Source: Candidatus Hodarchaeota archaeon (lineage in GTDB: Archaea; Asgardarchaeota; Heimdallarchaeia; Hodarchaeales; Hodarchaeaceae). From it: DNA of 14,595 bases. A program made the translations under genes and the position numbers. A model generated the notes under the pieces. The model was given only the letters and a program-made list of their open reading frames with translations. It had not been told where the DNA came from and searched no databases. Of this stretch, positions 1 through 14,143 are shown piece by piece (positions within the stretch are counted from its first letter, which is position 1; each line of letters opens with the position of its first letter). The stretch covers positions 1-14,595 of the forward strand of contig JAEOTM010000098.1 in NCBI GenBank assembly GCA_016839815.1, written 5' to 3'.

Positions 1-105
1 AATAAAAACAGTATAATCAGTTTTGAAACCACTCTAAATATTTTAAATGAGATTGGTTCACCTTTGGACATTATCCAAACATTATCCTTCACTAAAGACT
101 CCCGA

Positions 106-1044
106 ATGACATCTATCACGAAATCTGAACCCAGTATTGCTTCTAGAAGTCAATCTTTTTCTGAATTGACACAGAAAGCAAATCATTTAACTGTGTGCCA
201 ATATTGTCACACCTCAAGTGAATCTTCAAGTAATTATTGTGAAAATTGTGGTAAAAATCTTTTTGACCAACAGGATTTTCTTCAAAATATCAAACAAGAA
301 ATAATCGACCATAATTATTTTATAACGTTTTTGTTCTGTTGGTTTGGCTTCGTAATCCTACAGGCCTTTTTTTATGCTTTATTTGGGATCTCAATGTTTT
401 CAATTTTGTTTCCTGATATTCATATCAAAAGTTGGAGTGTTCCCTTTTCAGAAAGTTTAGTAATCTCGATGATACTCTCATCTATTCCTGCATTTATTGT
501 CTCTTTAATGATAGGATTCTTTTTTGACCAGTTATATCTTAATGCACTAAAATCTTCTAAACAAAAATACAATCAAGCAATTGAAAAATTGCAAGGTAGA
601 TTCATACTAGGAATATGGTTGACTCTTATTGGGGCAAGTATATTCCTATTCCTTATATTGAATGGGTTTACTGAGTTTATTCTTCTCTTGATGATTGTTT
701 TATGGATATATGGGACCTCCGTTTGGAATCATCCTTTCCACTTGAAAGACAAACCAAACAAAGTTCCCTATTTTACGCTATTAAGTACGAAAAAATTACT
801 GGATAAACATGTCAAAGAAAAATTCTTTGTGTTTAATCCGATTTCGATATTCATGAGTATTATTCTAGCAGCTCTTTGGGTATTTCTAGCAGACCATCTC
901 CTTCATCCAGAGTTAGAATTTCAAGATCTAGTATTTGCAGGGGGATTAGTGATGATAGCGCTCTTCATAATAGTTAACGGGATTTTCTTCATGTATTTCT
1001 ATAATTGGTCTCATATCAAGAAGATTATACAACAGGGAGGATGA
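106..1044 (+). CDS. Zinc-ribbon domain-containing polytopic membrane protein (about 6 TM helices)
   Basis: N-terminal CQYC-x10-CENCG zinc ribbon (196-252), followed by about six hydrophobic stretches. ATG at 106 is preferred over the TTG at 64 used by the ORF track; the start is uncertain. Confidence 0.75.
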   Translation: MTSITKSEPSIASRSQSFSELTQKANHLTVCQYCHTSSESSSNYCENCGKNLFDQQDFLQNIKQEIIDHNYFITFLFCWFGFVILQAFFYALFGISMFSILFPDIHIKSWSVPFSESLVISMILSSIPAFIVSLMIGFFFDQLYLNALKSSKQKYNQAIEKLQGRFILGIWLTLIGASIFLFLILNGFTEFILLLMIVLWIYGTSVWNHPFHLKDKPNKVPYFTLLSTKKLLDKHVKEKFFVFNPISIFMSIILAALWVFLADHLLHPELEFQDLVFAGGLVMIALFIIVNGIFFMYFYNWSHIKKIIQQGG

Positions 1045-1135: not shown

Positions 1136-2089
1136 TTAATTATTCTTCAAATGCCATTCCACTGTTTGTTGTATAGCTACTTCTGGATCGGTTGGTTGAA
1201 CGTCAAATGTAGATGTGAATTTACTTGAATCTACTACAAAATCACTCTCCCATTGATATGCAACTTCTCTAAATTCCCGAGCAGTTTTAATGAATAGGCT
1301 CCCAATGAGTAGCATAAATTTGGGCATTGATTTAACTTTCTTTGATTCAGTATTAGCTTCTTTCAGTACCATTTCTGCAAATTCTCTTACTGTAACAGAG
1401 CTTACATGTGGAAGATGCCAAGTTTTTCCGAATGCATTTTCATTTTCTCCGAGAGTGACCAAACCTTTTCCAAAGTCAGGTAAGTAGATGAAGCTATGAC
1501 GTTTATCCAAATTTCCTATAAGATTTACATCTTTTCCATTATTAAGCTTCTCAAATAGGTACATTCCCAACATTGAATTTTTTGCACCTGGACCGAAGAA
1601 ATCAGAGCCTTTCCCAATTGTTGCTCTGATTTTCTCTTCCTTGTGAGCATTTAACAAATTTACTTCTATACGTGAACGAATTTTTCCCTTTTTTCCTTCA
1701 GCTAGATGAGGTAAATCTTCCTTTAGCGGTCCTTTTATGACATTGTATTCTCCATAAGCGTACATATTATCTGCATACACTACTTTCGTTTCATTCCCTT
1801 GACTTGCAGCAGCACGAATTACATTATCCATGATGATTTCTAATTTTGGAAAATCCTGATAGGGTAAGCCAATACAATGATATATTGTAGTAGCTCCTCG
1901 AACCGCGGCTTTCAGACTTTCTAAGTCAAAAGCATCTCCTTTTACAGCTTTAACTGATGTCCCAAAGTTTGAGTTTCCACTCCTCGATACAATTCGGACA
2001 TTTTTTCCTCTTGCGAGTAATTCTTTCACGATGTAGGATCCTACATTTCCATTTGCCCCTAACACTACATTTAATTCAGACTTTTCCAA
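1136..2089 (-). CDS. NAD-dependent epimerase/dehydratase family protein (atypical SDR)
   Basis: N-terminal Rossmann motif VVLGANGNVG, plus VYADNMYAYG, DFFGPG and HSFIYLPDFG motifs typical of atypical SDRs. TTG start with AAAGGAGA ribosome-binding site about 8 nt upstream. Confidence 0.9.
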   Translation of the reverse strand: MEKSELNVVLGANGNVGSYIVKELLARGKNVRIVSRSGNSNFGTSVKAVKGDAFDLESLKAAVRGATTIYHCIGLPYQDFPKLEIIMDNVIRAAASQGNETKVVYADNMYAYGEYNVIKGPLKEDLPHLAEGKKGKIRSRIEVNLLNAHKEEKIRATIGKGSDFFGPGAKNSMLGMYLFEKLNNGKDVNLIGNLDKRHSFIYLPDFGKGLVTLGENENAFGKTWHLPHVSSVTVREFAEMVLKEANTESKKVKSMPKFMLLIGSLFIKTAREFREVAYQWESDFVVDSSKFTSTFDVQPTDPEVAIQQTVEWHLKNN

Positions 2090-4245: not shown

Positions 4246-5169
4246 GTGTCGATATTGAATAGTGAACAAAAAAATATAGATCGACAAGATATTCATCCCT
4301 TTAAATCTCAAAAAGCGAAAGAAACTTTTCTGACCTATTACGATGAAAGAGCAAAAGAATGGCCTATTGACTCAGAAACAATGTATGTAAATAGTTCTTT
4401 TGGTCAAACATTTATAAGAATATGTGGCCCAAAGGATGGTCCTTCATTAGTCTTATTACCAGGTGATTCAGTGACCTCACTTGATTGGATGCCTCTAATC
4501 GGAAACTTGTCTAAAGACTATCGTATCTACGCTTTAGATCAGATATATGATATTGGTCGTAGTATCTATTCACGTCCGATAAAAAAACCAGATGATTTTG
4601 TTCAATGGCTAGATGAAGGGTTTATTGCGCTAAATCTGGATAATATTAATTTAATGGGTTATTCCTATGGAGGCTGGCAAGCAAGTCGCTATGCTCTTTC
4701 TCATCCAGAACGATTAAACAAGTTGATTTTACTTGCACCAGCAACTGCTTTACCTATTAGATTGAGTGCTTTAATTCGGGTCATTTTCTATGCTGTTATA
4801 CCTGTACAGATTATGGTTAAAAGTTACCTCTATTGGTTCATGGCCGATTCAGTAAGAAAAAATGAAGAAACTAAAAAGGCCATTGATGAAATGATTACGG
4901 AGACTATGCTAGCGAAGAAATGTTTTAAGTCTAGGAAATTTGTAAATCCAACTGTATTGACTGATGACGATTGGCAGAACTTAAATATACCTATCCTTTT
5001 CTTGACTGGAGAAAATAAAGTACTTTATTCCGCAAAGAAAGCGATTCTGCATCTAAAAAATTTTGCACCTAATATTAGAACCGCAATCACCTCTGATGCT
5101 GGTCATGATTTACATATTGTAAAACCAGATTGGGTTACTACTGAAGTACTAGAATTTCTAAGAAATTAA
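4246..5169 (+). CDS. Alpha/beta-fold hydrolase (carboxylesterase Nap/YbfK-like)
   Basis: Nucleophile elbow GYSYGG, oxyanion region LVLLPG, C-terminal AGH His, and N-terminal WP..SE...V.S.FGQT pattern. GTG start. Confidence 0.9.
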   Translation: MSILNSEQKNIDRQDIHPFKSQKAKETFLTYYDERAKEWPIDSETMYVNSSFGQTFIRICGPKDGPSLVLLPGDSVTSLDWMPLIGNLSKDYRIYALDQIYDIGRSIYSRPIKKPDDFVQWLDEGFIALNLDNINLMGYSYGGWQASRYALSHPERLNKLILLAPATALPIRLSALIRVIFYAVIPVQIMVKSYLYWFMADSVRKNEETKKAIDEMITETMLAKKCFKSRKFVNPTVLTDDDWQNLNIPILFLTGENKVLYSAKKAILHLKNFAPNIRTAITSDAGHDLHIVKPDWVTTEVLEFLRN

Positions 5170-7869: not shown

Positions 7870-9582
7870 TTAAGTCTTCTGAAAGTATTCCTCTTGGAGA
7901 GAGGTACAGTATTGTTCATCAGCGATTGTATCACTTTGAATATATTGATCGGTTAATCGGATAACACGGTATCCTGGTCTCATCAACAAATAATCGTGTG
8001 TTGCTGCTATAATTGTTTTTCCTTTTTCCGCCAATCCTGTTAGTATATTCATAATTTGAAGTGCTAGTCTACTATCCAGATTCGCTGTTGGTTCATCAAC
8101 CATAATTACATCTCCTCCTTTATATAATGCTGCGGCTAAAGACGCTCGTTGTTGTTGACCACCTGATAACTCAGTAGGAAATACTTTATGATATATTTTA
8201 ATTCCAAGAGTTTCAAGCAATTCATAGAGTGGATTATAGTCTTTAATTTTTTGTTTTAACCGTAACATATTTGGTAGCATTACATTTTCTTCAATAGAAA
8301 GAAAAGGGTGCATTACATAATTCTGGGTGACATAACTTATATTCTTTAAGCGAATCTGCGATTTTTTACCTTCTGATGATTTATGAAATGGTATTCCCAT
8401 TACTTCTAGAAATCCTGAGCTGGGTTTTTCCAAGCCAGTAAGTATGTTAAGTAGGGTTGTTTTTCCTACTCCACTGGGACCAAGGATAGCAACAAACTCT
8501 CCTTGGTTTATTGTAAAAGAAAGGTTATTGAGTACTTGATTTTCTTGCGTTAAGCTCCTGTATGTTTTCCCGATACCTTGTGCAATAATTAACGGATTAT
8601 TTGTTATATTTTTACGACTGAAGGGAGGAGTCTCAATAGACTCTGATTGATCTTCAATGTATATCTCCTCTGGATTTCTCTTAATTCGTGCGAAATCTTC
8701 ACTCAAGTTATGAGTGATTATCACCTGTTTTTCGATTTGCAATCTTCTCAAGATATGATCTGGAATCCGGATTGATTTTGATGAATCCAAGATGGTATTA
8801 TCTGTTACCATCTCTGGTTCTTTGTTTTTTCTCTTAAATAACGATTCACGTTGACTTAGGAGGTTCTCTCCATATTCTTCTGTTGCAAGTCTTCCATCAA
8901 GTATCAGAAGTGCTCTATCAGAGAGTGTTTGAAAACGTATATCATGAGTGGCCACTAGAATTGCAGTACCTGATTTTGTGACTTTTCTCATCAATTTATG
9001 AAGTAGATTCATATTTTCTGAATCAAGTTGACCTGTAGGTTCATCTGCTAGGACAACAAATGGTTTTTTGGAAACTGCTTTTGATAATGCAACTCTCATG
9101 GTTTCACCAGCAGATAATTTTCCACAACGCACATTTGATAATTTTCGAATATTTAAATCAGTAAGAATTTCTTTTGTTCGTTCACGAGCATCCCTAGTTT
9201 TCCATCCTGCATTCAACATCTCCCATGAAATTGCATCGAAAACCTTCATGCGAGGATCAAGATTTTCACGGGCATATTGTGAAAAATGTCCTATGAAACG
9301 TCTTCTGAATTCACGTCGTTTTGTTTCACTCCATTCTTGAATAGGAATATTTCCAACTTTAACCACACCGCTGGATGCATTAACAATTCCTGCAATAATC
9401 AATAGTAACGTTGTTTTCCCAGCACCAGAAGGACCAATTATTGAAATAAGTTCTCCCTTTTTAACTGCTAGATCACATCCCCGTAAGGCTGAAATCTTTG
9501 TGCCATCGAGTTTATGTTGATAAATTTTGATTAAATCCTTTATTTCAACAGCATAGTTATTCTCACTAGAAATAGTACTCAT
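7870..9582 (-). CDS. ABC ATP-binding protein with two LolD/MacB-type NBDs separated by an AbrB/MazE-like segment
   Basis: NBD1: GPSGAGKT, LSAGE, LADEPTGQLD, ATHD. NBD2: GPSGVGKT, LSGGQQQR, VDEPTANLD, ATHD. The likely start ATG 9582 overlaps the permease stop (ATGA) and has GGAGGAGG upstream, giving 570 aa. Confidence 0.92.
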   Translation of the reverse strand: MSTISSENNYAVEIKDLIKIYQHKLDGTKISALRGCDLAVKKGELISIIGPSGAGKTTLLLIIAGIVNASSGVVKVGNIPIQEWSETKRREFRRRFIGHFSQYARENLDPRMKVFDAISWEMLNAGWKTRDARERTKEILTDLNIRKLSNVRCGKLSAGETMRVALSKAVSKKPFVVLADEPTGQLDSENMNLLHKLMRKVTKSGTAILVATHDIRFQTLSDRALLILDGRLATEEYGENLLSQRESLFKRKNKEPEMVTDNTILDSSKSIRIPDHILRRLQIEKQVIITHNLSEDFARIKRNPEEIYIEDQSESIETPPFSRKNITNNPLIIAQGIGKTYRSLTQENQVLNNLSFTINQGEFVAILGPSGVGKTTLLNILTGLEKPSSGFLEVMGIPFHKSSEGKKSQIRLKNISYVTQNYVMHPFLSIEENVMLPNMLRLKQKIKDYNPLYELLETLGIKIYHKVFPTELSGGQQQRASLAAALYKGGDVIMVDEPTANLDSRLALQIMNILTGLAEKGKTIIAATHDYLLMRPGYRVIRLTDQYIQSDTIADEQYCTSLQEEYFQKT

Positions 9583-12500
9583 AACCGAACCTCCTCCAAA
9601 TGACGTTTTGAAAAACGATTGATTTTCAGCATCCAGACTATCATAACGAATCCTAAGATTATTAAAGACCATAGGATTATCAGAAATCCATTATAAATCC
9701 AAACTAAGTCCCTTGCGTTTTCTCCGAAGAATTCCGGTCCACTTGTCGTTGACCAAAGGAATCCAATTAAAACTCCGATCATACTGGGGACGATAACTGA
9801 CAAGATGAGCTCGAAAGATAATTGGGAATTGAAATATCCAGGAGTCGTTCCTGCCCTGTGATATACTTCCAATTCATGTTTCCGTCTCTCAAAAAGAATA
9901 TCTAATAGAATATAAGTATAGAGAATTGGTGTAAGAGTAGCTACAATTACGCTTATGTGGATAATGAATTCAAACAAACGAAAAAATGGATGTCTTTGTA
10001 AACTAATAATTTGGGTCACTACTTCAAGTTTAGCTCCACTAATTTCTTTAATTTTTGTTGCTATGTTGTCAATATCTTCAGATCCTTCGACTTTAACCAA
10101 AGCTTTTCTTTGCTGCAAAGTTTCTACAGTAACTAGAGTACTATCCGTAGCATTCTTCAAAAATAAGTCGTTGATTTGATTCAGTGTTGAAAAACTGATA
10201 ACCATTTGTAATGAATTAGTCACTCCACTTTCTTGGTCAATCAGCTCATGTTTTAAGACTGGAAACTGGTCAAATGAACCAACAATAGTTATGGTGTAAG
10301 TATCTTCTATGTGAGGGAGTTCAAGAGTTATATTATCACCTTCTCTAAGCGCATTGTTGGCTAAGAACTCCTTGGTCATTAGTGTGGTTCCATTTTTAAG
10401 ATCAATAATCGTTGTAATGTCAAATCCATAATCGTCCACATATACTTCAGGTATCACCACTGAATGCATGAAAGTTGCCGGATCAATGGCAAAAAGACCT
10501 ATTTCTGGAGTATTTCTAAACGCAATCTTATCAAAAAAGAACGTGGCGAGATGGTCTACTTCATATAAATTGGATATTTGAGTCTGAATATGAGTGGGTA
10601 TTGTTTCCCAATTATCTACAATAATATCAGTGCCTAATTCATTATAGGCTTCATTTTCATATTTTTGCTCAATTGTGGGTGGGACAATAAACATGGGGAC
10701 GATTAAGAATAAGCTGATAATGAAGATTAAGAGAGCATTTCCATAAATGCTCATATGACGACTTATTCCTTTAAACATTAAGCTCCTTGGGTTCCTAGAA
10801 TATTTCCAACCTAAAGAGCTTAGACTGATGAATAGTCTATTTAATACTTTTGAGAGCACAATCATTGCCCCAAAAGCGGCTACTAATAATGCAAACATAC
10901 GTAATGTTATGATCAATAACTCAGTTGTAGGATCAGTCACACCATTATCGATAGAGATTTGATCTTGGAAAACTGTTGCGAAGAAGTTAGCACCAACTGC
11001 TAATAGGAGTCCGATCAGAATAACAATTATATCACCTTTTACACCACTAATAACTCTTGAATATCGCCAATCCTGATCTTCTAATAACCAACGAATACTG
11101 AGGAGTATACTTACAAAACTTAAGATGATGAAAGTACCAAGAAGTATTATCCATAAGAACTCCAAATTTACTGGTGGAGAAGAGGAGGGATCTATTTCAA
11201 AGAATCCTGTAAACAAAAGGAAATTAGTCACGGTTATTGGAACTAGAAAGGCACTAAACGTAACAGCAAAGGCGGTAGAAATAATCCTTTCTCCAACGAA
11301 CAAAATTAGCTGTATTTCAGTTCTCATTCCTTCTTTACGAAATCGTTGAATTTCCTCTTGCGTTGAGCTCTTAGTCATTCCTAAAGCACCATATGTTAAA
11401 AATAGAAGAAGAACTAAAACAGGAACAGTAAGAAGAGTTCCTTGTAATTGTAAATCACGACTCGCATTAAAGAATCCGCGAAGGAATTCAATAATTCTTG
11501 TATCAGAAAAACTCCCAATCCAAAGAAAACCTGTCTCTTGAAGAGTTTTTTTTCCTAGCGCTTCAAAATTTGAAATAAGACCAGGAATTTTCTCCCTTGA
11601 CAGATTTGAAATCATATATCGGACAGAAATAAATGTTTGAGGAATAATACTTAACCGACTAAATGAGTCTAGAAATGTGTTTGCATGTTTAGGTGTCATA
11701 TAGAATGGTACTGTGTCTAATAATCTCAATCCAGCGACAGTAGTGTTTAAACGATCAGCCCATGCTTTGGTTGAAGAGAATGATAACGATTCTACTTTTT
11801 TAACGACACCTACAACAGATAAATTCTGACTTAAACCTTTCATAGACGTATTGAAGTAAACATCTAATACAGTCCCATGAAGTTCAACCCTTGAATTTAA
11901 ATCCCAAATAATTCCAGATGGGGCATCAGAATTAAAAGGATCATTTTCTACAAACCAATTCTGTTGAAGTAACACTTCTCCTGGTTTTTCAGGTAATCGT
12001 CCATTAACTAATTGAGATTCTAAATAGTCAATCCAATCTTCTTCAATGATAGAAACGTTATGAGGAAAAGGATAATATACAACTTCATCAGGAGCTGTTG
12101 CATTGTCTTCATTTGGGACCATGACTTCTCGTTTTTCAGATAATTGAATTATGGTCATTGTAGACATTTTTGTAGAAATATCGTATACTCCATATCTTAT
12201 CGCAAATGATTGGCTTAAAGACTTAGGTATTTTCCATTCGTTCTCAGAAATGGTATTATTTGCTAGTTCATCATCATAAACAGTACGAATCCAAGTAAAA
12301 TCACCAGCTTCGAAATTTATGTTCTCTCCATCGTTCAACGGATTTTGAATTTCATAGGAATGAAGAAGATTCGCTTGATGACTACTTAGTCCAATTAAAA
12401 GACTCATAAGTATGAGGGATGGGAGAATTAAAACAAAAAATGAACTAATAAGCCTTTTCCAATTTGTTTTTACATGAATAATCCATAAAAATAAAATATT

Positions 12501-14063
12501 ATATGATTTACTTGTTAAATATTGTACTAGATTCTCTTTCCTCTTATCTAGTTCTAAATCTTGGATCTCTTTTGGAAATTGTAACGCTTTTTTTCGCCAA
12601 TATACTACTCCACTGAGAATAGCGATAAAACTAGTAATGAGAAAAACAATGAATAAAAAATTTCTTAACCTATCCTCGAAAGTAATGACTTTTTCAGGTT
12701 CTATCATGACGTCGATATATATAGGAGAAACATTTGGTAATGATTGATCCGAAATGATAAACGCTGTTCCAACCGTGTCATTTAAAATTTTATGTTCTGA
12801 AATAATATAATCTGGAGTCGTCGTTGTTGTAACTAATCCCACTAGTGAAGGAGATTTTAAATCCAAGGTGAAAAAGAAGAAAGTAGTTGAAAAACTGAAA
12901 TCTCTATACTTTTGTCTAACAAGGGTTTTATTATCTGAATTAAAAATAAATAAATCAGCACTTAGAGTAAATATTTCTTGAGCAAAATCGAAACCAGTTG
13001 AAGCTATTCTTACCTCGTTATTATAAGCTTCAATCACAGGAAAAAGCGCGAATTCAAAAGGATCTGGATCAAGATCTGAAAATAGTTGATTTATAGATTG
13101 ATTTTTCCATTGTATTGCATGTTGAACTTCAGCTCCAAAAATGAAAGAATAAATCTTGCCTGAATTAGTAATAGCGAGTGAAGGTTTAGTCATATCTGTT
13201 AACATGAAATCAAATGAAGGTAACGCATTTAAATCGGGGTACTGTGAATAGATTTCAAAAGTATTGTTCTGGGTTTCTTCTAGAAGCGTTAGTGTGGCAA
13301 AAGATGAATTTATCATTACTGCAGAAAGCAAGAATCTCGAATTATTGGCATATCCAACATCAAATACATCGATAACTGGTTGGGGTGGGGAGCTTGGTGG
13401 AAATACAATCGGGTACTTAATACTCGAAAATCCAATGAATTCTGTATTTGTGAAAGTAAGCTTAAATAAGGAACCAGAGTCATCTGTAGTGTTAATACCA
13501 GGGAAATAATATTCAATATGATCATCATATTGAACTGGACCAATTACAGGACCATTAAACGAAACTTCTCTAGGTACATTAATAGTATCAACATTTAAAC
13601 CAGTTTCTGAATTCCAGAAAAATCTTCTTAGAGATGTACCAAAAAAGAAGCTTTTTAAAAAAACTCCCATGATTGAGCCATCTGTAGTTTCAACCAATTC
13701 TTGCCTAAAGAAAATCCCTAAGGTAAAACTAATCGTACCAAATGGAGTCGGTAAAGCTGTTTGTGAATCTATATGATGGTGTTGGGTTGACCCATTAGTT
13801 AATACATTCATATAATATATTTGAACCGTGGCTCCATGACTATAATACAACCAAGTGTGAATATTTCCCCTACTATCTTCTTTTATTCCAATCGGATTCA
13901 AAGTAGGTAAAGTGAAATCATCACCTGTATTTTCTATTGCAAACATAATTGGTTTTACTGAATGTAATTCTGATTTTTGAGCACTGACAGGAGTAATAAA
14001 ACAAGAGCTTTGGAATAGAATTAAAAATATTGAAATTAATACCAGAAGCTGTTTTTTTTTCAT
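9579..14063 (-). CDS. Giant FtsX/MacB-like ABC permease (two FtsX modules) with signal peptide and extra N-terminal extracellular domain
   Basis: Signal peptide MKKKQ-hydrophobic-VSA, then a ~440-aa soluble domain and a TM helix ending WRKK. Two TM + large loop + 3TM units follow, with GRLPEKPGEVLL, LGTDIIV, AIDPATF and GDNITL...ITIVG loop motifs and coupling motifs EEIQRFRKEG and RRKHELEVYHRAG. Confidence 0.88.
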   Translation of the reverse strand: MKKKQLLVLISIFLILFQSSCFITPVSAQKSELHSVKPIMFAIENTGDDFTLPTLNPIGIKEDSRGNIHTWLYYSHGATVQIYYMNVLTNGSTQHHHIDSQTALPTPFGTISFTLGIFFRQELVETTDGSIMGVFLKSFFFGTSLRRFFWNSETGLNVDTINVPREVSFNGPVIGPVQYDDHIEYYFPGINTTDDSGSLFKLTFTNTEFIGFSSIKYPIVFPPSSPPQPVIDVFDVGYANNSRFLLSAVMINSSFATLTLLEETQNNTFEIYSQYPDLNALPSFDFMLTDMTKPSLAITNSGKIYSFIFGAEVQHAIQWKNQSINQLFSDLDPDPFEFALFPVIEAYNNEVRIASTGFDFAQEIFTLSADLFIFNSDNKTLVRQKYRDFSFSTTFFFFTLDLKSPSLVGLVTTTTTPDYIISEHKILNDTVGTAFIISDQSLPNVSPIYIDVMIEPEKVITFEDRLRNFLFIVFLITSFIAILSGVVYWRKKALQFPKEIQDLELDKRKENLVQYLTSKSYNILFLWIIHVKTNWKRLISSFFVLILPSLILMSLLIGLSSHQANLLHSYEIQNPLNDGENINFEAGDFTWIRTVYDDELANNTISENEWKIPKSLSQSFAIRYGVYDISTKMSTMTIIQLSEKREVMVPNEDNATAPDEVVYYPFPHNVSIIEEDWIDYLESQLVNGRLPEKPGEVLLQQNWFVENDPFNSDAPSGIIWDLNSRVELHGTVLDVYFNTSMKGLSQNLSVVGVVKKVESLSFSSTKAWADRLNTTVAGLRLLDTVPFYMTPKHANTFLDSFSRLSIIPQTFISVRYMISNLSREKIPGLISNFEALGKKTLQETGFLWIGSFSDTRIIEFLRGFFNASRDLQLQGTLLTVPVLVLLLFLTYGALGMTKSSTQEEIQRFRKEGMRTEIQLILFVGERIISTAFAVTFSAFLVPITVTNFLLFTGFFEIDPSSSPPVNLEFLWIILLGTFIILSFVSILLSIRWLLEDQDWRYSRVISGVKGDIIVILIGLLLAVGANFFATVFQDQISIDNGVTDPTTELLIITLRMFALLVAAFGAMIVLSKVLNRLFISLSSLGWKYSRNPRSLMFKGISRHMSIYGNALLIFIISLFLIVPMFIVPPTIEQKYENEAYNELGTDIIVDNWETIPTHIQTQISNLYEVDHLATFFFDKIAFRNTPEIGLFAIDPATFMHSVVIPEVYVDDYGFDITTIIDLKNGTTLMTKEFLANNALREGDNITLELPHIEDTYTITIVGSFDQFPVLKHELIDQESGVTNSLQMVISFSTLNQINDLFLKNATDSTLVTVETLQQRKALVKVEGSEDIDNIATKIKEISGAKLEVVTQIISLQRHPFFRLFEFIIHISVIVATLTPILYTYILLDILFERRKHELEVYHRAGTTPGYFNSQLSFELILSVIVPSMIGVLIGFLWSTTSGPEFFGENARDLVWIYNGFLIILWSLIILGFVMIVWMLKINRFSKRHLEEVRL

Positions 14064-14105
14064 TATTTCCGATCCATGATCATTTAATAGAGATTTCTAG
14101 TTTTT

Positions 14106-14143
14106 TAAGTCAAATTAAACTGAATTCAGTTTCATAGGACTTA
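14106..14143. promoter_or_regulatory. 38-bp inverted repeat, putative operator of the ABC operon
   Basis: TAAGTC-aaatt-AAACTGAATTCAGTTT-catag-GACTTA: a perfect 16-bp core palindrome (14117-14132) with co-centred 6-bp outer arms, 43-80 nt upstream of the permease ATG. Confidence 0.6.

What the first reader, a model, noticed from the sequence alone, without database searches (positions are those of the whole stretch)
7870..14143. Candidate self-contained receptor-like type VII ABC system: ectodomain-fused double-FtsX permease, NBD-AbrB-NBD ATPase and upstream operator
Seen: two translationally coupled genes (ATGA overlap at 9579-9582), each internally doubled (two FtsX modules, two NBDs) and each with an add-on domain (an extracellular domain on the permease, an AbrB-like linker in the ATPase). 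A long palindrome lies upstream, and no adjacent adaptor or two-component genes are in the window. Known: MacB/FtsEX/LolCDE/BceAB systems work by mechanotransmission, normally with single-NBD ATPase dimers, and BceAB signals through a separate kinase. Inference: a 1:1 complex forms a complete machine that may couple an outside binding or catalytic domain to ATP hydrolysis and possibly to transcription. I do not recognise this combined architecture as described.
Basis: partly seen in the sequence, partly recalled or inferred. Interest (0 to 1): 0.8.

Follow-up and report, generated by a model that had tools for sequence, protein, structure and literature searches.

The report
Fully fused archaeal FtsX-type ABC machine
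A Heimdall-group (Asgard) archaeon encodes an ATP-driven membrane motor of the bacterial MacB/FtsX/YbbP kind, packed into two proteins instead of the usual three or four chains. It carries an unknown 435-residue outside domain and a small AbrB-like insert in the ATPase. The design is real and conserved, but its job is unknown.

Summary
Two minus-strand genes overlap in ATGA (9579-9582).

- **Permease (1494 aa).** It has a signal peptide, an orphan ~435-aa outside domain and an extra TM helix. These precede a 10-TM core that matches E. coli YbbP (VIA Z 22.5) and BceB (Z 21.7) end to end, so it holds two FtsX modules.
- **ATPase (570 aa).** It has two complete LolD/MacB-type NBDs. Between them lies a conserved 50-aa segment that is weakly but specifically AbrB/MazE-like (hhalign P 6e-5; 0 of 100 shuffles reach its score).
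- **Conservation.** The gene pair recurs with the same 4-nt overlap in Kariarchaeaceae-like and other Heimdallarchaeia genomes. Heimdallarchaeum genomes carry 3-4 distant paralogous pairs. This genome also has a split version (permease, NBD1 with AbrB-like tail, NBD2), so the AbrB-like piece is a tail of NBD1, not a product of the fusion.

The 16-bp palindrome is unremarkable and is absent upstream of the one orthologue whose upstream region could be read. Nothing links the system to transcription. A 1:1 complex is inferred by analogy with YbbA2:YbbP1 and was not modelled.

I found no paper on this family. Earlier notes of this scan describe relatives in other genomes. I rate it a new variant of a known kind, function unknown.

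The parts
9579..14063 (-). Permease gene, 1494 aa (P0001)
   Evidence: ORF. Eight orthologue clusters at 33-52% identity.
13980..14063 (-). Signal peptide or N-terminal anchor (residues 1-28)
   Evidence: Hydrophobic segment 4-28. The same feature is present in orthologues and in most ~1400-aa paralogues.
12672..13979 (-). Orphan N-terminal ectodomain (residues 29-464)
   Evidence: No Pfam, PDB or Atlas match. Nine sequons. Conserved among orthologues. No paralogue in this genome.
12594..12671 (-). Extra TM helix (TM0, residues 465-490) that returns the chain to the cytoplasm
   Evidence: Hydropathy. Helix 3-34 of the model.
11079..12455 (-). FtsX module 1: TM1, ECD1 (563-870), TM2-4
   Evidence: Model range 53-541 matches FtsX chains at Z 9.4-10.5 and forms the first half of the YbbP/BceB match.
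10827..11057 (-). Linker helices TM5-TM6 (residues 1003-1079)
   Evidence: Hydropathy. Same position as TM5-6 of YbbP.
9582..10757 (-). FtsX module 2: TM7, ECD2 (1134-1358), TM8-10
   Evidence: Pfam FtsX at 1372-1487. Model range 628-1035 matches HrtB, LolC/E and MacB at Z 12-14.
9579..9582 (-). ATGA stop/start overlap
   Evidence: Sequence. The same 4-nt overlap occurs in L010/L029.
9590..9597 (-). GGAGGAGG, Shine-Dalgarno-like, 7 nt before the ATPase ATG
   Evidence: Sequence. A ribosome-binding function is inferred.
7870..9582 (-). Tandem-NBD ATPase gene, 570 aa (P0003)
8833..9555 (-). NBD1 (residues 10-250; GPSGAGKT, LSAGE, VLADE, THD)
8668..8820 (-). AbrB/MazE-like segment (residues 255-305; D266 and P274 conserved in 97 sequences)
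7885..8595 (-). NBD2 (residues 330-566; GPSGVGKT, LSGGQ, IMVDE, THD)
   Evidence: A single NBD matches YbbA (TM 0.94, rmsd 1.6 A).
14106..14143 (.). Inverted repeat with a perfect 16-bp core (14117-14132), centred 61 nt before the permease ATG
   Evidence: Not conserved in L029. Function unproven.

Best explanation
This is a two-gene operon for a type VII (MacB/FtsX-fold) ABC 'mechanotransmission' machine in which every normally separate part is fused.

Shown:
- One permease chain carries both FtsX modules in the YbbP/BceB 10-TM layout. The outside domains lie between TM1-2 and TM7-8, and TM5-6 act as a linker.
- One ATPase chain carries two diverged but catalytically complete NBDs (31% identical).
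- The design is conserved in Heimdallarchaeia.

Inferred:
- One ATPase chain docks under one permease chain, with NBD1 and NBD2 each on one coupling helix. ATP binding and hydrolysis at two competent sites then move the outside domains.
- The extra N-terminal domain is held at the membrane by its own TM helix next to the two outside domains. It is the working head of the machine: either a cis-fused counterpart of the separate partner proteins of bacterial systems (TesA, EnvC, LolA, MacA) or a ligand-binding cap.
- The AbrB-like segment is the inherited C-terminal tail of NBD1. As a half-barrel it most likely makes a protein-protein contact, pairing two complexes or docking a partner, rather than binding DNA.

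The substrate or target is unknown.
For: - Fold: YbbP Z 22.5 and BceB Z 21.7 over the whole model. Each half matches single FtsX-module proteins.
- Topology and sequons place the N-domain and both ECDs outside.
- NBDs are of the LolD/FtsE/MacB kind, and a single NBD superposes on YbbA at 1.6 A. All catalytic motifs are present in both.
- YbbAP has 2 NBD: 1 permease with coupling helices between TM2-3 and TM8-9 (PMC12646458).
- Conservation: orthologue pairs with the same overlap; 3-4 paralogous pairs in complete Heimdallarchaeum genomes; 29 of 31 Heimdallarchaeaceae genomes have ~1400-aa relatives.
- Split version in this genome and in G047: permease, then NBD1 with the same tail, then NBD2.
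- AbrB-likeness. The only non-repeat PDB match of the split tail is an AbrB/MazE/SpoVT protein, at a weak E of 0.63.
Against: - No complex was modelled, so docking, stoichiometry and a closed NBD dimer are untested. The ATPase model's pTM is only 0.55.
- The N-domain has no recognisable fold, active site or relative, so its role as 'effector' is a guess.
- The AbrB-like call is weak: no Pfam hit, hhalign probability 64.5%, and pLDDT of 58-82 in that stretch.
- No expression or functional data exist.
- The orthologue was not found in the 23 other genomes of the same order, and the MAG is 7.8% contaminated. The contig may therefore not belong to this organism.
Confidence: 0.6

Rival explanations
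1. One reading: a receptor-like transducer. Binding at the outside domain changes the ATPase cycle. The AbrB-like segment then binds DNA, for example the upstream palindrome, or a regulator, so that the transporter controls its own transcription without a kinase.
For: AbrB-like folds often bind DNA (established knowledge). The segment is conserved. A perfect 16-bp palindrome lies 61 nt upstream of the start codon. No kinase lies in the window.
Against: - There is one half-barrel per chain, and it sits between two membrane-docked NBDs.
- The same tail exists in a split paralogue whose locus has its own MarR-type regulators and a PAS histidine kinase.
- The palindrome motif occurs once in the genome. 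Three equal palindromes occur in this 14.6-kb window and 110 in the genome.
- No inverted repeat is found upstream of the orthologue in L029.
Confidence: 0.07
2. An ordinary extractor or exporter, like YbbAP (hydrophobic compounds), LolCDE (lipoproteins) or BceAB (peptide-lipid complexes). The substrate is taken from the membrane's outer face. The N-domain would only be a cap, an anchor to the surface layer or a specificity lid, and the fusions would have no special meaning beyond fixed stoichiometry.
For: The closest folds are YbbP and BceB. Related permeases of ~950-1030 aa lack the N-domain altogether yet keep the same ATPase types. The N-domains of paralogues show no sequence similarity to this one, as expected for a variable specificity module.
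Against: No substrate, partner hydrolase or carrier gene is conserved next to the pair. The N-domain is as well conserved among orthologues as the core.
Confidence: 0.25

Closest known systems
E. coli YbbAP(-TesA), type VII ABC system (PDB 9GE6-9GE8; PMC12646458)
   Same: - Single permease chain with 10 TM helices and two FtsX-fold halves joined by TM5-6.
- Porter/Sabre-type outside domains between TM1-2 and TM7-8.
- MacB-type NBDs, two NBDs per permease.
- Best structural match: Z 22.5 for the permease, and TM 0.94 for an NBD against YbbA.
   Different: - YbbA is a separate single-NBD protein used twice. Here two diverged NBDs are fused in one chain around an AbrB-like segment.
- YbbP has no N-terminal ectodomain or extra TM helix.
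- TesA is a separate periplasmic hydrolase.
- Sequence identity is only ~10-12%.
- The host here is an archaeon without periplasm or outer membrane.
BceAB(-BceS) of Bacillus subtilis (PDB 7TCG, 7TCH, 8G4C)
   Same: 10-TM fused double-FtsX permease, Z 21.7.
   Different: BceB has one large outside domain (TM7-8) where this protein has two. BceA is a homodimer. BceAB works with the BceS kinase. No kinase lies in this window, though the split paralogue on C116 has a PAS histidine kinase two genes downstream.
Fused tandem-NBD subunits of other ABC classes (M. tuberculosis OppD and DppD; PDB 8J5Q, 8WDB)
   Same: Two NBDs in one polypeptide serving separate membrane subunits. These are the top whole-chain Foldseek matches of the ATPase.
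   Different: They belong to type I importers with different NBD subfamilies and linkers. No AbrB-like insert is reported in those descriptions (not checked further).
AbrB / MazE / SpoVT swapped-hairpin domains (Pfam PF04014)
   Same: Motif G/S-x-[IL]-R-I-P-x-x-[IL]-R/x-x-x-L followed by two strands. Beta-alpha-beta-beta pattern. Profile-profile P 6.3e-5.
   Different: It does not reach any Pfam threshold. There is a single copy inside an ATPase, with no evidence of dimer formation or DNA binding.

Membership tests
Type VII ABC (MacB/FtsX-fold) systems | Four-helix FtsX membrane fold with a large outside domain between TM1 and TM2 | tested here: met
   Both halves of the model match FtsX, LolC/E, MacB and HrtB chains (Z 9.4-14.3). 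Pfam FtsX matches the second half.
Type VII ABC (MacB/FtsX-fold) systems | NBD of the LolD/FtsE/MacB subfamily | tested here: met
   NCBIfam LolD E 4.8e-90, FtsE E 6.4e-85, L_ocin_972_ABC above its cut-off, two stretches each. YbbA TM 0.94 and MacB NBD TM 0.91.
Type VII ABC (MacB/FtsX-fold) systems | Mechanotransmission: the ATP cycle moves the outside domains with no substrate passing through the membrane | not testable with these tools
   Inferred from fold only.
YbbP/BceB-type fused permeases | One chain with 10 TM helices, two pseudo-symmetric halves, TM5-6 as linker | tested here: met
   Hydropathy. Whole-length match to YbbP and BceB. Topology as described in PMC12646458. An eleventh helix (TM0) and a signal peptide are extra.
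YbbP/BceB-type fused permeases | Served by two copies of one separate single-NBD ATPase | tested here: not met
   The partner gene encodes two different NBDs in one 570-aa chain. Split relatives use two different NBD genes.
BceAB-BceRS sensing modules | Adjacent histidine kinase and response regulator, and a single ECD between TM7 and TM8 | tested here: not met
   No kinase or regulator lies next to the pair in the window or in L029/L031. There are two ECDs.
AbrB/MazE/SpoVT (PF04014) domain | Sequence match to the family profile | tested here: inconclusive
   No Pfam hit at E<=10, and none in a six-frame family search of the genome. hhalign against 32 Heimdall PF04014 domains gives Prob 64.5%, P 6.3e-5, with 0 of 100 shuffles reaching the score.
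AbrB/MazE/SpoVT (PF04014) domain | Swapped-hairpin barrel formed by two copies; DNA or partner binding | not testable with these tools
   Only the monomer's beta-alpha-beta-beta pattern is seen. No multimer modelling was available.

The most novel reading that the evidence does not exclude
A self-contained archaeal transmembrane transducer. In this reading the outside partner protein of a type VII ABC machine has been fused in cis, and the half-AbrB barrel between the NBDs pairs two complexes or captures a cytoplasmic AbrB-type partner or DNA. Events at the cell surface of a Heimdall-group archaeon would then be reported to the cytoplasm without a kinase.
Probability: 0.1. Interest if true: 0.75.

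Novelty: new variant of a known kind. Interest (0 to 1): 0.5.

Why it matters
Type VII ABC systems are known almost only from bacteria, where they act on the wall, outer membrane or lipoproteins. This family is different in several ways. It is conserved and multi-copy in Heimdallarchaeia, the archaea closest to eukaryotes, which lack those bacterial targets. Its asymmetry is hard-wired, with two different NBDs and two different FtsX halves. It also has a large unknown surface domain. It therefore offers a natural single-complex construct for structural work on mechanotransmission, and a lead to unknown Asgard cell-surface biology. The split and fused versions in one genome also document how such fusions arise.

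Tried and rejected
- **Internal repeat.** BLAST and hhalign between the two permease halves gave nothing. The duplication is visible only by structure.
- **Linker and outside domains.** Pfam on the linker, N-domain, ECD1, ECD2 and first TM bundle gave nothing usable. The ESM Atlas gave nothing for the linker and scores of only 0.81-0.85 for the N-domain, below the lead level. phmmer of the N-domain against PDB gave nothing.
- **Linker against PDB.** phmmer of the linker and of the split tail returned only artefacts from designer repeat proteins (Pizza, dPPR), built from many 3-6-bit stretches. I rejected these.
- **N-domain relatives.** The N-domain profile against the N-domains of Heimdall paralogues gave P 0.013, not significant. 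Against C116 neighbours, including an SBBP propeller protein, and against all ORFs of the genome, it found only itself.
- **Contig origin.** Synteny through DUF998 and an ADH was uninformative because the genus is divergent and the genes are multi-copy.
- **Flanking repeats.** No direct repeats flank the pair.
- **Promoter scan.** The sigma-70 scan is irrelevant for an archaeon and sat at shuffle level.
- **Literature.** Three searches found no paper on an archaeal tandem-NBD type VII system.
Full report
**What is there.** The window is a whole 14,595-bp contig (C46) of a 4.24-Mb MAG, 89.5% complete and 7.8% contaminated. The nearest protein matches are named Hodarchaeales, Kariarchaeaceae and Heimdallarchaeota, so the organism is a Heimdall-group Asgard archaeon. 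Two long ORFs lie on the minus strand: 9579..14063 (1494 aa) and 7870..9672. The stop of the first overlaps an ATG of the second (TTATGAGT, 9579-9582), and GGAGGAGG lies 7 nt upstream. The 570-aa product from that ATG is the form held in the protein collection, and the orthologues begin at the same position.

**ATPase.**
- Pfam ABC_tran matches twice. NCBIfam LolD, FtsE, MacB, DevA and bacteriocin-exporter ATPase models match twice.
- NBD1 and NBD2 are 31% identical. Each has Walker A, a signature motif (LSAGE and LSGGQ), Walker B with the catalytic Glu, and THD. Both sites therefore look competent.
- An AlphaFold model built on 97 homologues has pLDDT 88 but pTM 0.55, so the mutual position of the domains is uncertain.
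- A single NBD superposes on YbbA (TM 0.94, 1.6 A, 35% identity) and on the MacB NBD. As a whole chain, the best matches are fused tandem NBDs of other ABC classes, M. tuberculosis OppD and DppD.

**The linker.**
- Residues ~255-305 carry a motif (DSxxSIRIPDxI...L) in which P274 is invariant and D266 nearly invariant across 97 sequences that are only 33-61% identical overall.
- The model gives strand, helix, strand, strand at pLDDT 58-82.
- Pfam does not call it, and a six-frame PF04014 search of the genome does not hit it.
- I built a profile of 32 PF04014 domains from Heimdallarchaeia genomes and compared it with the linker profile. The result was Prob 64.5%, P 6.3e-5, score 22.9, with IRIP aligned on the family's ItiP. 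The reversed profile gave P 0.05. One hundred column shuffles gave 7.2 +/- 1.8, with a maximum of 14.1.

**Permease.**
- Hydropathy gives a signal peptide (4-28), a 436-aa hydrophilic stretch, a TM helix (465-490) and a short cytoplasmic stretch. After that come TM1, a 308-aa loop, TM2-4, TM5-6, TM7, a 225-aa loop and TM8-10.
- Pfam FtsX matches only 1372-1487. No internal repeat is detectable by sequence.
- I collected 46 representatives from 1.84 billion proteins and modelled residues 460-1494, giving pLDDT 85.4 and pTM 0.77.
- Foldseek ranks E. coli YbbP first (E 1.6e-16 over all 1034 columns) and BceB second.
- VIA gives YbbP Z 22.5 (713 residues aligned; model 67-1035 on chain 1-802) and BceB Z 21.7. 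Single-module proteins match the second half at Z 12-14 and the first half at Z 9-10.
- This is exactly the YbbP topology described in PMC12646458: 10 helices, outside domains between TM1-2 and TM7-8, TM5-6 as linker, coupling helices between TM2-3 and TM8-9, and a YbbA:YbbP:TesA ratio of 2:1:1.
- The double-FtsX claim is therefore confirmed.
- All 20 sequons of the permease lie in the N-domain (9), ECD1 (8) and ECD2 (3). None lies in the 445 membrane or cytoplasmic residues.

**The N-domain.** It has no Pfam, PDB or usable Atlas match. It has no paralogue in this genome and no significant similarity to the equally placed ~400-440-aa N-domains of Heimdallarchaeaceae paralogues. It is conserved among orthologues, with invariant positions such as F234, D235, Y238, A239, N240, W319 and N321.

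**Conservation.**
- Eight clusters of full-length permease orthologues (33-52% identity) exist. The ATPase orthologues (49-61%) come from contigs of the same lengths.
- In L010/L029 the two genes overlap by 4 nt as they do here. Flanking genes differ between the loci, so the conserved unit is the pair.
- In the complete Heimdallarchaeum genomes G006 and G007, three to four distant pairs (permease 1431-1505 aa directly followed by an ATPase of 587-637 aa) cluster within ~60 kb. In addition, 29 of 31 Heimdallarchaeaceae genomes have ~1400-aa relatives.
- ATPases with the same motif also occur in proteins named Bathyarchaeia and Thorarchaeota.
- Split versions exist. In this genome, C116 encodes a 982-aa permease without N-domain, then a 291-aa NBD1 ending in ...VDDHGNLRIPESIRQKVGIQ..., then a 230-aa NBD2. 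NBD1 of that system aligns with residues 12-289 of the fused ATPase, through the motif.
- The AbrB-like piece is therefore the tail of NBD1. The window's ATPase is NBD1-tail joined to NBD2.

**Distribution oddity.** With both the protein and an orthologue profile, the orthologue was not found in the 23 other species genomes of the same order. It was found in 4 of 12 genomes of another family of the class. The cause could be patchy retention, transfer, or mis-binning of the contig. I could not decide between these.

**Palindrome.**
- AAACTGAATTCAGTTT (14117-14132) is perfect and sits inside arms with 16 of 19 positions paired. Its centre lies 61 nt before the ATG.
- Two other perfect 16-bp palindromes lie in this window, and 110 lie in the genome. 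The motif itself occurs only once.
- The upstream region of the L029 orthologue has no inverted repeat.
- Reading the sequence, a TATA-like TATTAAAT lies ~25 nt before the ATG. That would put the palindrome well upstream of the core promoter. This is inference only.
- There is no evidence that the palindrome is an operator.

**Verdict.** The system is best described as a fully fused, asymmetric YbbAP-like type VII ABC machine with a cis-tethered orphan ectodomain. The proposed coupling to transcription has no support. I found no paper on this family. Curated libraries name only the generic parts.

Earlier notes of this scan describe relatives on other DNA: e1-2590554 (followed up as a Heimdallarchaeal FtsX-type surface machine), e1-5646124, e1-5621885 and e1-3529162. 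This window is therefore a further member of a family the scan has already met.

Noticed in passing
G000 contig C116:10998-23055 (locus L071): Split paralogue locus, all on one strand: two MarR-type genes (380 and 150 aa), a 982-aa double-FtsX permease, NBD1 with an AbrB-like tail (291 aa), NBD2 (230 aa), a 146-aa unknown, a soluble PAS-HisKA-HATPase_c histidine kinase (484 aa), a 355-aa membrane protein with a C-terminal winged helix, and a secreted 437-aa SBBP beta-propeller protein. It is a possible unfused counterpart of the window's system, with regulators and a surface protein as separate genes.
   Followed up: partly
window 7870-14063 versus genomes G048-G070: The orthologue of the pair was not found in any of the 23 other species genomes of the same order, but was found in 4 of 12 genomes of another family. 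The MAG has 7.8% estimated contamination. The pair may be horizontally acquired, or the contig may be mis-binned.
   Followed up: partly
G006:C1:100203-110038: In a complete Heimdallarchaeum genome, a 1433-aa permease is followed by a 298-aa 'half' ATPase (NBD1 plus linker only), then by a 1009-aa permease without N-domain and a 595-aa tandem ATPase. This is a mixed arrangement of fused and unfused parts.
   Followed up: no
window 1-1044 (+): An ORF open at the 5' end with a zinc-ribbon and a weak DHHC palmitoyltransferase-like match (E 4.5e-4, 20.7 bits, below the 28.7-bit cut-off). If real, a DHHC-type enzyme in an Asgard archaeon would be of interest.
   Followed up: no
window 2031-2046 and 5014-5029: Two further perfect 16-bp palindromes (ATGTAGGATCCTACAT and AATAAAGTACTTTATT). 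This makes three in 14.6 kb against about one per 39 kb in the genome.
   Followed up: no
window 14001-14003 (residue C21 of the permease): The only cysteine of the 1494-aa permease lies in the signal peptide (…LFQSSC FITPVSAQ). The sequence is not a canonical lipobox. Lipid anchoring was not examined.
   Followed up: no
L031:3237-4601 (-): Downstream of an orthologous ATPase in another Heimdallarchaeota MAG lies a convergent 454-aa protein with a C-terminal MarR/DUF7343 winged helix. It is not present in the window.
   Followed up: no
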